This document shows positions 8,957 through 15,122 of a stretch of DNA of 20,000 bases, piece by piece (the stretch's first letter is position 1; each line of letters opens with the position of its first letter). A program made the translations under genes and the position numbers. The notes below the pieces were generated by a model. That model was not told the origin of the DNA. It searched no databases and saw only the letters and a list, made by a program, of their open reading frames with translations. Origin of the DNA: an uncultured virus (IMG/VR IMGVR_UViG_3300021400_000004) (taxonomy: Duplodnaviria; Heunggongvirae; Uroviricota; Caudoviricetes); IMG/VR virus record IMGVR_UViG_3300021400_000004; one strand, given 5' to 3'.

Positions 8957-9584
8957 CTTTAATAATTTAACTATAATAATAAATGATTAGACTTTCGCCT
9001 TACTTACATTACCTTCCTTTTTATTCGACCAATGGAAAGATAAGTCTGAGCCAAAGGGAGCTACCCTTTAACTTCTTACCTTGCGGATACCCGAAGATAC
9101 CCTGCCTACACCATACAGGATTGATTACCTATAACTTTCACGCTCCATTCAGATGTTTTATTTTTATAAAGTTTAACCACACTTTCTTTAATTTGATCTC
9201 ATTGTAGATTTGCGCTACTCGTACCTTGACCTTCTCTTATAGATTGTCACCAATCATCAACTACAAAAAACTTCCTTATTTTCGTATTACTTAGGTTTGC
9301 GGCGGGGACGCCCCACATACCGCCTAACTAAGCTTCTTCCTCGCAGAGGCTGCCTATTACGGAAGCGAGAAGACAGTGTCTTAAAAAGCGATAACTTCAG
9401 CACATAATACTAGGAACCTAATTACATTTATTAGGCATTTCTTATATCACTATAAGAACCTTTAGAATTTTTAAAAAGTATCCTTAGTAAAAACCTTATT
9501 ACCCTTGATTAAGTATTATTCTCAGCCACATGGAGTTGTGTCTGCACTGAGTTAATATTTATTATTATAATTAAATTATCAAAG
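8957..9584 (-). ncRNA. Large structured ncRNA, ROOL/GOLLD-like (~630 nt)
   Basis: 28-bp terminal stem (9557-9584 with 8957-8984) whose two deviations are G-U pairs on the minus strand only; many internal hairpins; own promoter; adjacent to tRNAs; no convincing ORF. Confidence 0.7.
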
Positions 9585-10282: not shown

Positions 10283-10346
10283 TATCTACCCTCTGTGCTA
10301 CGCCCAAAGACGATTTCGACTATTAAAAGGAAGTCGCTAACCTTAG

Positions 10347-10419
10347 TGGCGGAGAGGGGAGTTGAACCCCTAGCCCTTGACGTATGAAGCCACGAATCTA
10401 CCTTTGATACTACTCCGCG
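10347..10419 (-). tRNA. trnM: tRNA with CAU anticodon (Met; initiator-like 5' end, atypical)
   Basis: CGCGGAG/CTCCGCC with C1:C72 mismatch; TGGC-TTCATAC-GTCA; GGTTCAACTCC. Confidence 0.8.
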
Positions 10420-11199
10420 TTATATTTTTTCCCATTCTTCTTCAGAATAAGATTTTATTTCTTGTTTTTTAAATGGTAAATTATAACTTTTACACCATTT
10501 TCTTATACTGTTATCAGTAACATTATATTTTTTACCTATTTGAACAAACGAAGTTGTTCTAATTAATTGTTTCAATTCTTCTCTTGTTACAGGTCTAGTT
10601 GCTAATCCTTCTTGTTTTTGAATTTCATGTCTACAATCTTGACAATACTCTGCATTTTTACTAACTATTTTATGACATTTTTTACAATAAAAGATTTGTT
10701 TTTTAGTTCTTGTGCAGTCAAAAGGACTAATTCTTAATGGATAAATTAATTTACTTTCTCTCCAAGTTCTTCCTGTATTAATATCTCTAATAGTATCTTC
10801 ATGCACTCCATATATCTTTGCAATTTGAGGATAAGATAAATTCGATTTTGTTTTATCCAATAAAATTTTTTGAATGTCTTTTACTTGAGCATAAGTTAAT
10901 TTCACTCCATGAACTTGATAATCTCCACCTTCTGTTTGATTATAAACTGGATTATAATATTTTATCCAATAATGTTCTCTTTCATTAAGCTTATTAATAT
11001 CGCATTCTTCAATAACTTCAAATGAAAAATTATCAATTCCATATTTCCTAAAAGCTCTATATAAAGGATAATCATACCCTTTATCATTTTTATTTTGACT
11101 TGCTACTTTATGGTCTGACCATCTTTTATTAATATTTCTACTTTGACCTATATAACAATGACCATTTAAATTATTAGTTATTTTATAAATTCCTATCAT
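10420..11199 (-). CDS. Free-standing GIY-YIG homing endonuclease with C-terminal HTH/Zn-finger DNA-binding modules
   Basis: MIGIYKITN...CYIGQS...KRW...H...E...YN; IAKIYGVHEDTI; CxxC...CxxC; IGKKYNVTDNSIRKW. Confidence 0.9.
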   Translation of the reverse strand: MIGIYKITNNLNGHCYIGQSRNINKRWSDHKVASQNKNDKGYDYPLYRAFRKYGIDNFSFEVIEECDINKLNEREHYWIKYYNPVYNQTEGGDYQVHGVKLTYAQVKDIQKILLDKTKSNLSYPQIAKIYGVHEDTIRDINTGRTWRESKLIYPLRISPFDCTRTKKQIFYCKKCHKIVSKNAEYCQDCRHEIQKQEGLATRPVTREELKQLIRTTSFVQIGKKYNVTDNSIRKWCKSYNLPFKKQEIKSYSEEEWEKI

Positions 11200-11228
11200 A
11201 GTAAAAACCTCCATTTTTTTATTTCATA

Positions 11229-13956: not shown

Positions 13957-14313
13957 TTAAATCTCTTTAAGTAAATTTTTGAATATTTTATCAACTTCTA
14001 ATTTTTTAAGTTCTTTTCGAGCAAAAACATTATAACCAGAATAAATAATATCTCCATTATTTATATAATTAGTTTCAACAAGATCTTTGAGTATATCGCC
14101 TATATATGGCTTTAAACAATAAATTGTTTTCCATCCATACTTTTTAGAATTTTCATAATCCTGTTTGGCATACTCTACATATTCTCTACAAGAACTTGAA
14201 TCATACCCAAGATAATAAGTATGCTCAAAAATTGAATTTTCATTATCATAAATTTTAACTTCTACTCTATCTGAATTTAAACCCATAATATATCTTATAT
14301 TCATTTTTGGCAT
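13957..14313 (-). CDS. Hypothetical protein
   Basis: Likely start MPKMNI after GAGG; upstream extension in track runs through promoter and tRNA. Confidence 0.8.
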   Translation of the reverse strand: MPKMNIRYIMGLNSDRVEVKIYDNENSIFEHTYYLGYDSSSCREYVEYAKQDYENSKKYGWKTIYCLKPYIGDILKDLVETNYINNGDIIYSGYNVFARKELKKLEVDKIFKNLLKEI

Positions 14314-14347
14314 ATAATTATTACCTCTTTCTTTATTTTCTATAATA

Positions 14348-14376
14348 ATTATAATAAAAATTTTTAAATTTTGCAA
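14348..14376 (-). promoter_or_regulatory. Class-1 promoter
   Basis: TTGCAA-17-TATAAT. Confidence 0.75.
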
Positions 14377-14424
14377 GTTGGAGGTAGAGGGAATCGAACC
14401 CACTCGAGCCATAAGGCATGTGAT

Positions 14425-14841
14425 TTATGCCTTATCCGAGAATTGAACTCGGTATTTATAAGTTTGAAATCCTTGATTATTTTTATTTGGTTCTGTTCTT
14501 AAAGAAATTATTTGTTTAGTTGTAGTAATATCTTTAATAGGTATTAACCACATATTTAAATCTTTATTTACACAGAATAAATAATCAAGCTCAGAGTGAT
14601 TTAAAAGATTATCATAGACTTTGCCATTGGTTCCACCAGTTGAACGAAAATCTATTCTATCATCTTGTGTTTGAGTGGCTTTACATTGTACAGTCTCAAA
14701 CTTTCCATCTTTTTCAATCACTATGTCATACCACTGAGTGTCATTCATTGGTATAGATACTGTATAACCATGTATAGTAAAATAATTTATTGCCATACTT
14801 AAGCCAATTCTACCAGTTTGTTTTCTGTTAATTTCATTCAT
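14425..14841 (-). CDS. PD-(D/E)XK endonuclease resembling the group I intron-associated I-Ssp6803I/PDDEXK_5 type
   Basis: 138 aa, AAGGAG RBS; GYTVSIP...YDIVIE...VQCK...DYLF pattern. Confidence 0.8.
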   Translation of the reverse strand: MNEINRKQTGRIGLSMAINYFTIHGYTVSIPMNDTQWYDIVIEKDGKFETVQCKATQTQDDRIDFRSTGGTNGKVYDNLLNHSELDYLFCVNKDLNMWLIPIKDITTTKQIISLRTEPNKNNQGFQTYKYRVQFSDKA

Positions 14842-14862
14842 TATAAAAACTCCTTTTAAGAC
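14428..14862 (-). mobile_element. 435-nt intervening sequence with tRNA-mimic ends, encoding an endonuclease
   Basis: Starts GTCTTAA, ends CCGAG-TTCAATT-CTCGG-ATAAGGC-A. Confidence 0.8.
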
Positions 14863-15036
14863 CAGTCACATCCGTCTCCTTAGCGGTTTATACCTCCTTA
14901 AAGTTCTAAATCACATCGGCTCATTACCCGTGTATCTCGGGGACATAACCGAACCATTACCGAACAATACAGGTATTGTCTTTTCTAGTACTCTCGATTT
15001 AGTTGCTTCGTGCATGATTTAATATGTCTGCCTAAG

Positions 15037-15122
15037 CGCCGCAGATAGGACTTGCACCTATATACCATTTCTGGCTACTTGTTTTCAAGACAAGGGCTCC
15101 CACTATACTGAGCGACTGCGGC
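15037..15122 (-). tRNA. trnS: tRNA-Ser(UGA)
   Basis: GCCGCAG/CTGCGGC G; CTTGT-CTTGAAA-ACAAG; variable arm; variant T loop TGCAAGT. Confidence 0.88.

What the first reader, a model, noticed from the sequence alone, without database searches (positions are those of the whole stretch)
14379..14897. tRNA-Tyr split in its anticodon by a ribozyme-less, endonuclease-encoding insert whose ends mimic a tRNA
Seen: a complete tRNA-Tyr(GUA) is interrupted between G34 and U35 by 435 nt (14862-14428). Only 21 nt precede the nuclease ATG and the ORF runs to the end of the insert, leaving no room for a separate group I/II core; the junctions (G|G...A|U) do not follow the group I U|...G| rule. The insert's first 7 nt (GTCTTAA) pair 6/7 with ATAAGGC, which follows a canonical T arm (CCGAG-TTCAATT-CTCGG) and precedes one discriminator-like A exactly at the 3' junction. 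Known: acceptor stem plus T arm is a minimal RNase P/RNase Z substrate. RNase P leaves a 3'-OH on the upstream piece and RNase Z a 5'-phosphate on the downstream piece, and Bacillus RNase Z handles CCA-less precursors. I-Ssp6803I-type nucleases normally sit in group I introns of tRNA genes. Inference: a mobile intron that borrows tRNA-maturation enzymes for precise excision, with exons joined by an ATP-dependent RNA ligase and homing into intact trnY alleles by the nuclease. I do not know of a described intron class like this.
Basis: partly seen in the sequence, partly recalled or inferred. Interest (0 to 1): 0.97.

Follow-up and report, generated by a model that had tools for sequence, protein, structure and literature searches.

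The report
Phage tRNA intron with tRNA-like ends
A phage tyrosine-tRNA gene is interrupted by a mobile nuclease gene whose two ends fold like the top half of a tRNA, which suggests that the cell's ordinary tRNA-trimming enzymes cut it out and a ligase rejoins the tRNA; that would be a kind of intron not described before, but the splicing itself has not yet been observed.

Summary
Removing window 14428-14862 (minus strand, 435 nt) restores an 84-nt tRNA-Tyr(GTA). A related phage record carries the same gene uninterrupted, which fixes both borders to the base.

The insert is 21 nt of leader plus a 138-aa I-Ssp6803I-like PD-(D/E)XK nuclease ORF. Its stop codon is U35-A36-A37 of exon 2. No group I/II intron or small ribozyme is detectable, in this window or in 20 relatives.

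I found 32 distinct related inserts in phage tRNA-Tyr genes. In all of them:
- the first 7 nt pair with the 7 nt that follow a canonical T arm;
- every one of the 7 helix pairs shows compensatory changes;
- the helix starts at insert base 1;
- the insert ends at the discriminator, or at discriminator+CCA exactly when the host tRNA-Tyr gene itself encodes CCA (14/14 against 18/18).

The T-arm codons are the most synonymously constrained in the ORF. In 3 of 3 complete genomes the split gene is the only tRNA-Tyr, and each encodes an RNA ligase. The ligase is not specific to split-gene phages.

The best reading is excision by RNase P and a 3' tRNA-end endonuclease, followed by ligation (about 0.55). 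RNA-level proof could not be obtained.

The parts
14863..14897 (-). tRNA-Tyr(GTA) exon 1: acceptor 5' strand, D arm, anticodon-stem 5' strand, and C32-U33-G34
   Evidence: ARAGORN on the spliced form. Aligns with the intact G001 gene.
14428..14862 (-). 435-nt insert between G34 and U35 of the anticodon (the putative intron)
   Evidence: Absent from the homologous gene of G001. Homologous inserts of 431-445 nt occur in 41 loci, 32 of them distinct.
14856..14862 (-). 5' strand of the terminal acceptor-like helix (GTCTTAA); begins at insert base 1
   Evidence: Pairs 6/7 with 14429-14435. All 7 pairs covary across 27 haplotypes. The register is unique in the sliding control.
14850..14855 (-). Shine-Dalgarno-like AAGGAG, 8 nt before the ATG
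   Evidence: Read from the sequence. A purine-rich AGGAG/AGGA block at the same place in relatives.
14425..14841 (-). ORF of 138 aa, a PD-(D/E)XK_5 (I-Ssp6803I-like) homing endonuclease. Its stop codon, 14427-14425, is U35-A36-A37 of exon 2.
   Evidence: PF11645, E 1.1e-17, residues 5-123. phrog_5018, E 5e-28. AlphaFold model with pLDDT 78.7 and tail residues 123-138 below 50. Foldseek best hits are the four chains of 2OST (I-Ssp6803I), E 1.6e-6, TM 0.61-0.65.
14436..14452 (-). T-arm mimic: 5-bp stem CCGAG/CTCGG and 7-nt loop TTCAATT. Also encodes R-V-Q-F-S of the nuclease tail.
   Evidence: Partial tmRNA/tRNA-clan hit on exactly these bases. T stem 97% paired, with 4 of 5 pairs showing double changes. 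The Val and Ser codons here have the lowest synonymous diversity of 44 columns, 0.07 and 0.09 against a median of 0.53.
14429..14435 (-). 3' strand of the acceptor-like helix (ATAAGGC); abuts the T stem with no spacer, as in a tRNA
14428..14428 (-). Discriminator-like A, the last base of the insert
   Evidence: All 18 distinct CCA-less inserts end with one unpaired base here. All 14 CCA-type inserts end N-CCA.
14379..14427 (-). tRNA-Tyr exon 2: U35-A36-A37-A38, anticodon-stem 3' strand, long variable arm, T arm, acceptor 3' strand, A73. No encoded CCA.

Best explanation
The insert is a mobile, endonuclease-encoding intervening sequence in the anticodon of a phage tRNA-Tyr gene. It has no ribozyme.

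Architecture. Its two ends form the acceptor-stem and T-arm half of a tRNA: 7 bp stacked on 5 bp, a T loop, a discriminator, and CCA where the local tRNA genes encode it. The nuclease ORF takes the place of the D and anticodon arms. This is a tmRNA-like layout.

Proposed pathway.
1. The precursor is transcribed with the tRNA cluster.
2. RNase P cuts 5' of insert base 1. Exon 1 then ends in G34 with a 3'-OH.
3. The host's tRNA 3'-end endonuclease cuts after the discriminator. This would be RNase Z or an enzyme acting like it. In CCA-type relatives the cut falls after A76. Exon 2 then begins with 5'-phosphate U35.
4. The two halves stay together through the tRNA's own acceptor and anticodon stems.
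5. An ATP-dependent RNA ligase seals the nick in the anticodon loop, as T4 Rnl1 does for broken tRNA-Lys.
6. The nuclease is made from the uncut precursor only, because its stop codon lies in exon 2.
7. The nuclease spreads the insert by cutting uninterrupted tRNA-Tyr alleles.

Shown: the anatomy, the exact borders, the empty allele, the nuclease family, the conservation and covariation of the tRNA-like ends, the CCA match, and the absence of a detectable ribozyme.

Inferred: which enzymes cut, the chemistry of the ends, the ligation, and homing.
For: 1. Exact borders and an empty allele.

2. No ribozyme.
- Rfam finds no intron or self-cleaver in the window at gathering score.
- None at E<=10 over 14200-15100.
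- None at E<=0.1 over 20 related loci, 36.9 kb.
- Only 21 nt of the insert are non-coding.
- Among 44 four- or six-fold degenerate codon columns, no extended block of low synonymous diversity exists outside the T arm.
- 0 of 27 haplotypes end in G.

3. tRNA geometry is kept in 32 distinct inserts, 27 haplotypes.
- A 7-bp helix starts at insert base 1, with no spacer before a 5-bp T stem.
- The T loop is T-[T/G]-C-A-A-N-T in all.
- 7 of 7 helix pairs and 4 of 5 T-stem pairs show changes on both sides.
- 88.4% of helix cells are paired, against 61% when shuffled (0 of 2000 reach it) and 25-52% when slid.
- Helix pairing was not a selection criterion.

4. The geometry holds in a sub-type inserted one base further on (U35|A36; L067, L072, L098). 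There the helix still starts at insert base 1.

5. CCA match.
- 14 of 14 distinct inserts ending N-CCA lie in tRNA-Tyr genes with encoded CCA.
- 18 of 18 ending at the discriminator lie in CCA-less genes. Five rows needed a one-base register correction by eye.
- On the nuclease tree, well-supported branches force at least 2 origins of each state.

6. The cut does not serve the nuclease. In 26 of 30 intact ORFs the first TAA/TGA lies in exon 2, so an excised insert would be a non-stop mRNA. The tail encoded by the RNA element is disordered in the model.

7. The tRNA looks alive.
- The acceptor stem across the insert is 7/7 paired in 32 of 32 distinct genes, with many different sequences.
- The anticodon stem is 5/5 paired in 41 of 41 rows (at least 4/5 was required for anchoring).
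- The split gene is the only tRNA-Tyr in 3 of 3 complete genomes.
- Copies that are visibly dead (L008, L040/L131/L132) have also lost or damaged the RNA element.

8. Ligase.
- G002 and G003 encode an OB-fold plus RNA_ligase protein (75 bits; phrog_968, E 1e-61).
- G004 encodes an Rnl1-type ligase (57 bits; phrog_562, E 1e-53).
- No RtcB was found.

9. Precedent for a cut after CCA. The abstract of PMC1540738 states that Thermotoga maritima tRNase Z cuts precisely after A76 of CCA-containing precursors (listing).

10. From my own knowledge, not from a call:
- An acceptor-stem plus T-arm minihelix is a sufficient substrate for RNase P and for RNase Z.
- RNase P leaves a 3'-OH on the leader, and RNase Z leaves a 5'-phosphate on the trailer.
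Against: - No RNA data. Neither cleavage nor the spliced tRNA has been seen.
- In this window's own precursor the MFE fold contains 0 of 7 terminal-helix pairs (pair probability 0.02). Across the family, 18 of 32 precursors have at least 5 of 7 pairs in the MFE.
- In most CCA-less inserts position 7-66 is an A.A mismatch. In 3 haplotypes position 1-72 is G.A.
- The RNA ligase is not specific. Among records at least 90% complete it is present in 3 of 3 with the split gene, 1 of 3 with a free-standing nuclease and an intact tRNA-Tyr, and 0 of 1 with a broken insert.
- No ligase is seen in the window, nor in G001, which is 57% complete.
- The ligases sit beside a P-loop kinase (G002, G003) or a metallophosphoesterase (G004). 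That is the usual heal-and-seal set for 5'-OH and cyclic-phosphate ends, which RNase P and RNase Z do not produce.
- In many bacteria, CCA-containing precursors are finished by exonucleases. Those would destroy exon 2, so the CCA-type inserts require a host enzyme that cuts endonucleolytically after A76.
- A second nuclease-bearing insert in another tRNA of G003 has no T arm. The mechanism is therefore not general to all such inserts.
- The phages encode no RNase Z-like or CCA-adding enzyme.
Confidence: 0.55

Rival explanations
1. Processing signal only, with a dead tRNA. The tRNA-like ends serve the nuclease gene, for example by releasing or stabilising its mRNA out of the tRNA-cluster transcript, as t-elements do in plant mitochondria. 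The halves of tRNA-Tyr are never rejoined. The phage lives on host tRNA-Tyr.
For: - No spliced RNA has been seen.
- Earlier notes of this scan read several other nuclease-split phage tRNAs as dead.
- Decayed tRNA-Tyr remnants do occur beside relatives: L008, L040/L131/L132, L083, L100-102.
- The ligase is not specific to split-gene phages.
Against: - A cut at the 3' border removes the stop codon in 26 of 30 ORFs, so the released RNA would be a non-stop message. That is a poor product for the nuclease.
- A stabilising element would not need to begin at insert base 1 and end at base 73 or 76, nor to track the CCA status of the surrounding tRNA gene.
- The exons keep perfect acceptor and anticodon stems in 32 of 32 distinct genes.
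- The split gene is the only tRNA-Tyr in 3 of 3 complete genomes, while relatives with free-standing nucleases keep an intact one.
Confidence: 0.15
2. Protein-dependent splicing by other enzymes. The tRNA-like fold is a scaffold recognised by a different endonuclease, either a phage enzyme or the insert's own PD-(D/E)XK protein acting on RNA as archaeal EndA does. That enzyme leaves 5'-OH and 2',3'-cyclic phosphate ends. The phage kinase or phosphoesterase heals them and the ligase seals them.
For: - A P-loop kinase (AAA_33) lies 100-700 nt from the ligase in G002 and G003, and a metallophosphoesterase lies directly upstream of it in G004.
- Foldseek lists archaeal tRNA-splicing endonucleases among weak matches of the nuclease model: 2OHC, 2CV8 and 3AJV, E 0.01-0.05, TM 0.38-0.45.
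Against: - The best structural and sequence matches of the protein are the DNA homing endonuclease I-Ssp6803I and PF11645.
- The junctions do not form a bulge-helix-bulge. On the 5' side 3 nt are unpaired. On the 3' side 5 or 8 nt are unpaired. Both flank one continuous 7-bp helix (read).
- An enzyme unrelated to tRNA-end processing would not explain why the insert copies the discriminator/CCA style of the local tRNA genes.
Confidence: 0.17
3. Cryptic self-splicing. A very small or novel ribozyme is hidden in the ORF or formed by the tRNA-like ends.
For: - Relatives of the nuclease family are known in group I introns of tRNA genes. Passages of PMC1995217 describe a 655-nt intron with the 150-aa I-Ssp6803I in tRNA-fMet.
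- Rfam holds only described families.
Against: - No Rfam hit.
- Only 21 nt are non-coding.
- Synonymous sites vary freely along the ORF except in the T arm.
- No terminal G occurs in 27 of 27 haplotypes, and exon 1 ends in G rather than U in the main types.
Confidence: 0.03

Closest known systems
Group I intron of Synechocystis PCC 6803 tRNA-fMet encoding I-Ssp6803I (PDB 2OST)
   Same: Both are inserts in a tRNA anticodon loop that carry a PD-(D/E)XK homing endonuclease of the same Pfam family and the same fold (passages of PMC1995217).
   Different: The known intron is 655 nt with a 150-aa ORF, which leaves about 200 nt for a ribozyme. This insert is 435 nt with 21 non-coding nt, no group I match, no terminal G, and tRNA-like ends instead.
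tRNA-like processing elements cut by RNase P and RNase Z (plant mitochondrial t-elements, PMC1920247 in the listing; MALAT1 mascRNA; the mitochondrial tRNA punctuation model)
   Same: A tRNA-shaped element inside a longer transcript is used as a cutting mark for the tRNA-end enzymes.
   Different: Those elements define mRNA or ncRNA ends. None is known to lie inside a tRNA so that the flanks must be rejoined, and none encloses a mobile nuclease gene. The parts not in the listing are my recollection.
tmRNA
   Same: The 5' and 3' ends pair into an acceptor stem next to a T arm, with an ORF in between. Rfam's tmRNA model touches exactly the T arm.
   Different: The scores are 10-15 bits against a gathering score of 47. 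There are no pseudoknots, no resume codon or tag, and no G3.U70. The element lies inside a tRNA gene and encodes a nuclease.
Archaeal and eukaryal protein-spliced tRNA introns (bulge-helix-bulge, EndA, RtcB or Trl1)
   Same: Both are ribozyme-free tRNA introns in or near the anticodon loop that would be removed by proteins and a ligase.
   Different: No bulge-helix-bulge is present. No EndA or RtcB was found in the phage records. The recognition element is a tRNA mimic within the intron. The setting is bacterial and phage.
T4 Pnkp/Rnl1 repair of anticodon-loop nicks, and free-standing homing endonucleases in phage tRNA clusters (SegB type)
   Same: A phage RNA ligase would seal a nick in an anticodon loop. 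Relatives of this nuclease sit free-standing directly upstream of intact tRNA-Tyr genes in 21 of 90 rows.
   Different: In T4 the nick is made by a host defence nuclease, not by processing of an insert. Free-standing nucleases do not interrupt the tRNA.

Membership tests
Group I intron | Conserved catalytic core (P3-P9) recognised by the covariance model | tested here: not met
   No RF00028 match, or any other intron match, at gathering score, at E<=10 on 14200-15100, or at E<=0.1 on 20 related loci.
Group I intron | Exon 1 ends in U (U.G pair in P1) and the intron ends in G | tested here: not met
   Exon 1 ends in G in the window and in types A and B. The last insert base is A or T in 27 of 27 haplotypes.
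Group I intron | About 200 nt or more of structured RNA, whether non-coding or dual-use | tested here: not met
   21 non-coding nt. Synonymous diversity is normal along the ORF (median 0.53) except at the T arm.
PD-(D/E)XK_5 / I-Ssp6803I-like homing endonuclease | Sequence match above the curated Pfam cut-off | tested here: met
   PF11645, 64.7 bits against a cut-off of 26.1, residues 5-123.
PD-(D/E)XK_5 / I-Ssp6803I-like homing endonuclease | Fold like the solved I-Ssp6803I | tested here: met
   Model pLDDT 78.7. The top four Foldseek hits are chains of 2OST, E 1.6e-6 to 1.1e-5, TM 0.59-0.65. A profile search of PDB sequences found nothing.
PD-(D/E)XK_5 / I-Ssp6803I-like homing endonuclease | Presence/absence polymorphism at a fixed site, and cleavage of the empty allele | tested here: inconclusive
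   An empty allele exists in G001, and the insert sits at the same bond in 29 of 32 distinct genes. DNA cleavage cannot be tested with these tools.
RNase P / RNase Z substrate (tRNA-like minihelix) | 7-bp acceptor helix stacked on a 5-bp T stem, a 7-nt T loop with T54, C56 and A58, and an unpaired discriminator | tested here: met
   This geometry is present in all 27 haplotypes. The helix is 88% paired and the T stem 97% paired, both with covariation. The T-arm motif and at least 4 of 5 stem pairs were required to select rows.
RNase P / RNase Z substrate (tRNA-like minihelix) | Cleavage by these enzymes at -1/+1 and after N73 or A76 | not testable with these tools
Archaeal-type (bulge-helix-bulge) tRNA intron | Two 3-nt bulges separated by a 4-bp helix at the splice sites | tested here: not met
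   By inspection, one continuous 7-bp helix is flanked by 3 unpaired nt (5' side) and 5 or 8 unpaired nt (3' side).
tmRNA | Full covariance-model match: tRNA-like domain, pseudoknots and tag ORF | tested here: not met
   Only model positions 347-363 (the T arm) match, at 10-15 bits against a gathering score of 47. ARAGORN finds no tmRNA.

The most novel reading that the evidence does not exclude
This is a new class of mobile intron in bacteriophage tRNA genes, with neither a ribozyme nor a dedicated splicing endonuclease. It disguises its own ends as a tRNA, down to encoding CCA where the host's genes do. RNase P and the 3' tRNA-end endonuclease then excise it precisely, and an RNA ligase reseals the anticodon loop. 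Nuclease expression and tRNA maturation are mutually exclusive fates of one precursor, because the stop codon lies in exon 2.
Probability: 0.5. Interest if true: 0.95.

Novelty: categorically new. Interest (0 to 1): 0.88.

Why it matters
Bacterial and phage tRNA introns are thought to be self-splicing group I introns. Protein-dependent tRNA splicing is considered a trait of archaea and eukaryotes.

An insert that is removed by the universal tRNA-end enzymes plus a ligase would change three things:
- It would be a third route to tRNA splicing.
- It would give phage RNA ligases a housekeeping role beside repair of defence damage.
- It would show how a selfish nuclease gene can colonise an essential RNA gene without a ribozyme. 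The free-standing relatives, whose last codons differ from a T arm by a few bases, suggest how it arose.

Two practical consequences follow:
- tRNA finders miss these genes. The only tRNA-Tyr of 3 complete phage genomes is invisible to ARAGORN.
- The family is abundant in gut and rumen metagenomes: 1128 protein clusters at E<=0.001.

The model is directly testable with standard enzymes.

Tried and rejected
1. RNA evidence. The look-up of sequencing runs returned six runs. Nothing can be said about expression or splicing.

2. ARAGORN's intron mode does not detect the split gene.

3. The MAFFT alignment of whole precursors (A3) breaks the 5' helix strand with gaps. I therefore did not use the count of structure pairs. 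I computed pair counts, shuffles and slid registers on junction-anchored coordinates in a script.

4. A free search for the best-pairing 7-mer upstream gave ties in several loci and was replaced by anchoring.

5. Ligase correlation. With Pfam cut-offs it looked like 3 of 3 against 0 of 4 complete records. The weak hits in G006 and G007 proved to be real RNA ligases (phrog_968, E 1e-65). I dropped the claim of a specific association.

6. The DNA comparison of the G004 ligase region with G010 found no synteny and is uninformative.

7. Phage-encoded RNase Z-like (PF12706) and CCA-adding (PF01743) enzymes: none in 5 records.

8. DNA search of the phage collection: no match. The protein search found only relatives below 60% identity.

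9. Literature. Searches found no description of such an intron. This covers the held open-access library only. No supplements were read.

10. The junction of the second split tRNA of G003 could not be fixed. ARAGORN accepted many offsets.

11. Host. Two free-standing relatives lie on contigs of MAGs labelled Acutalibacteraceae and Clostridium. This is too weak to name a host.
Full report
**What is there.** The window is a phage-like tRNA cluster on the minus strand.
- ARAGORN finds eight tRNAs and no tRNA-Tyr.
- Rfam adds a ROOL RNA.
- PHROG and Pfam hits include tail-fibre-like proteins and a GIY-YIG nuclease.
- The nearest held record is a virus contig.

Read on the minus strand, 14897-14863 is the 5' half of a long-arm tRNA ending C32-U33-G34. 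14427-14379 is the 3' half beginning U35-A36-A37-A38. Deleting 14428-14862 in a script gives an 84-nt tRNA-Tyr(GTA). The related record G001 has the same gene uninterrupted. The two flanks match at 92% and 88% identity and abut each other. The insert is therefore 435 nt and its borders cannot slide.

**The insert.**
- 21 nt, including AAGGAG, precede an ATG.
- The 138-aa ORF is a PD-(D/E)XK_5 protein (PF11645, E 1e-17, residues 5-123).
- Its AlphaFold model (pLDDT 78.7) matches the homing endonuclease I-Ssp6803I best (2OST, E 1.6e-6, TM 0.61-0.65).
- The last 16 residues fall outside the domain and are modelled as disordered.
- They are encoded by CCGAG-TTCAATT-CTCGG-ATAAGGC-A. This is a T arm, then a 7-nt strand that pairs 6/7 with the first 7 nt of the insert, then one unpaired A.
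- The ORF stops at the TAA formed by U35-A36-A37 of exon 2.

**No ribozyme.**
- Rfam finds no intron or self-cleaving family in the window.
- It finds none at E<=10 over 14200-15100. The only structured hit there is a partial tmRNA-model match on the T arm.
- It finds none at E<=0.1 in 20 related loci.
- The known relative, I-Ssp6803I, lies in a 655-nt group I intron with a 150-aa ORF (passages of PMC1995217). Here nothing is left over for a core.
- Synonymous variation argues against a core hidden in the ORF. Over 30 ORFs, the 44 four- or six-fold degenerate columns have a median diversity of 0.53. The two lowest values (0.07 and 0.09) are the Val and Ser codons inside the T arm, GTT in 29 of 30 and the otherwise rare TCG. 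No other extended block is constrained.

**Relatives.** The nuclease has 1128 related protein clusters at E<=0.001. I fetched 9 viral and 80 metagenome loci. With the window this makes 90 rows:
- 41 rows (32 distinct sequences) have the same split tRNA-Tyr.
- 21 rows have a free-standing nuclease gene ending within -20 to +60 nt of the start of an intact tRNA-Tyr.
- 4 rows have an intact tRNA-Tyr just upstream.
- 24 rows are unclear, truncated or decayed.

Independently, brute-force splicing with ARAGORN gave a tRNA-Tyr(GTA) with the junction after G34 in 34 of 90 rows. One of these, L076, looks spurious.

Rows left out of the anchored set:
- L077: exon 1 ends CAG.
- L040/L131/L132: deviant T loop and a damaged tRNA.
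- L008: a deletion fuses the D arm to nuclease codon 35.
- L056 and L103: contig ends.
- L044 and L100-102: no T arm.

**The tRNA-like ends are conserved as structure, not as sequence.** Rows were anchored only on the T arm, the junction motifs and the anticodon stem. On these anchors the 27 distinct haplotypes of the element show the following:
- 88.4% of terminal-helix cells are paired.
- All 7 pairs show changes on both sides. Examples of the two strands: GTCTTAA/ATAAGGC, ATTCCAA/ATGGAGT, GTTATAT/ATATAGC, GCGAGAG/CTTTCGC.
- Shuffling the 3' strands among haplotypes gives a mean of 61% and a maximum of 69%. 0 of 2000 shuffles reach the observed value.
- Sliding either strand by 1-4 nt gives 25-52%.
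- The T stem is 97% paired, with double changes in 4 of 5 pairs, for example CCGAG/CTCGG against CTTAG/CTAAG. At least 4 of 5 pairs was a selection criterion for this stem.

The helix always starts at insert base 1, and the 3' strand always abuts the T stem. In three loci (L067, L072, L098) the insert sits one base further on (U35|A36), and the helix still starts at its first base.

Weak points:
- Position 7-66 is A.A in 14 haplotypes.
- Position 1-72 is G.A in 3 haplotypes.
- ViennaRNA recovers at least 5 of 7 helix pairs in the MFE of 18 of 32 precursors, but 0 of 7 for this window's own sequence.

**The CCA match.**
- 18 of 18 distinct inserts that end at the discriminator lie in tRNA-Tyr genes without encoded CCA.
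- 14 of 14 that end discriminator+CCA lie in genes that encode CCA. In five rows my script's acceptor register was off by one and I corrected it by eye.
- On a quick maximum-likelihood tree of 78 nuclease sequences, well-supported branches force at least two origins of each state. The tree is poorly resolved.

The insert therefore copies the way local tRNA genes end. This is what one expects if the enzyme that makes tRNA 3' ends also makes the 3' cut.

**Is the tRNA alive?**
- The acceptor stem, which pairs exon 1 with exon 2 across the insert, is 7/7 in 32 of 32 distinct genes, although its sequence differs widely.
- The anticodon stem is 5/5 in 41 of 41 rows.
- In the three complete genomes with the split gene (G002, G003, G004) ARAGORN finds no other tRNA-Tyr.
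- In the copies that are clearly dead, the RNA element is damaged too.
- A cut at the 3' border would remove the stop codon in 26 of 30 intact ORFs. The cut cannot be for the benefit of the nuclease message.

**Ligase.** G002 and G003 encode an OB-fold plus RNA_ligase protein. G004 encodes an Rnl1-type ligase. No RtcB was found. These enzymes join 3'-OH to 5'-phosphate, which is what RNase P and RNase Z leave (the end chemistry is my recollection).

The association is not specific:
- G006, and G007 (63% complete), which have intact tRNA-Tyr, carry the same ligase family.
- Among the seven records at least 90% complete, the count is 3 of 3 with the split gene, 1 of 3 free-standing and 0 of 1 broken.
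- Kinase or phosphoesterase genes beside the ligases fit a general RNA-repair set.
- No ligase is visible in the window itself.
- The phages encode no RNase Z-like or CCA-adding enzyme, so the cuts would be made by host enzymes.

**Mechanism.** I favour, at about 0.55, the following sequence:
1. RNase P cuts 5' of insert base 1.
2. A tRNA 3'-end endonuclease cuts after N73, or after A76 in CCA-type inserts. The abstract of PMC1540738 reports such a cut for Thermotoga tRNase Z (listing).
3. An RNA ligase seals the nick between G34 and U35.
4. The nuclease is translated only from the uncut precursor.
5. The nuclease homes into empty alleles such as that of G001.

The rivals:
- A processing signal with a dead tRNA: 0.15.
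- Other endonucleases with heal-and-seal chemistry: 0.17.
- A cryptic ribozyme: 0.03.

**Origin.** Free-standing relatives end Y-L-V-K-I-stop. Their last codons differ by a few bases from the T arm of the U35|A36 type, which ends Y-L-V-Q-I-stop inside the T stem. On the tree these inserts sit among free-standing forms. This suggests that the T arm evolved from the 3' end of the coding sequence.

**Novelty.** Six full-text searches found no description of such an element. Earlier notes of this scan list other nuclease-split phage tRNAs, mostly read as dead genes. One of them has an unexplained conserved helix. None proposes tRNA-like ends.

No RNA data could be examined, so the splicing remains an inference.

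Noticed in passing
window 8969-9575 (-); also L027:103-737, L032:1404-1989, L026:1-438: A full-length ROOL RNA (309 bits) lies in the tRNA cluster. ROOL RNAs also lie within about 1 kb of the split tRNA-Tyr in three related loci. Sub-threshold YrlA-like (Y RNA-like) hits occur in L098, L034 and L029.
   Followed up: no
window 10420-11214 (-): A 264-aa GIY-YIG plus HTH homing-endonuclease ORF ends directly upstream of tRNA-Met (10346-10419). It is a free-standing nuclease in the same tRNA cluster.
   Followed up: no
L002, L003, L004, L031-L036, L041-L043 and others; G002-G004: In-frame TAG codons sit at conserved Gln positions of the nuclease, and tRNA(CTA) genes are present in the three complete genomes. 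These relatives appear to read TAG as Gln. G003 also has a tRNA(TTA). In L009 a TAG sits at a conserved Tyr position.
   Followed up: partly
G003 about 89,380-90,170 (L108:9380-10170); L048:1480-2020: A second tRNA of G003 is split in its anticodon loop by about 780 nt that encode a distant PD-(D/E)XK paralog with a zinc ribbon and HTH (about 245 aa with TAG read through). It has no T arm and no Rfam intron, and its ends pair over 6 bp. The junction and anticodon could not be fixed. In L048 a tRNA-Pro(TGG)-like 5' half is followed by the same kind of paralog.
   Followed up: partly
L008 (G010), L040/L131/L132, L083, L100-L102, L044: Decayed forms occur beside relatives. In one, a deletion fuses the tRNA D arm to nuclease codon 35. 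Others are tRNA-Tyr genes lacking the variable arm or the whole 5' half next to an intact nuclease ORF. In L044, exon 2 abuts an ORF end with no T arm.
   Followed up: partly
G006:46387-47637, G007:77738-79096: These RNA ligases score below Pfam's cut-off (16-23 bits) but match phrog_968 at E 1e-65. The Pfam RNA_ligase model misses this phage ligase group.
   Followed up: yes
L057/L006 and L060: The nuclease ORF is frameshifted (a poly-A run in L057/L006, a 4-nt insertion in L060), while the tRNA-like ends and both exons stay intact.
   Followed up: no
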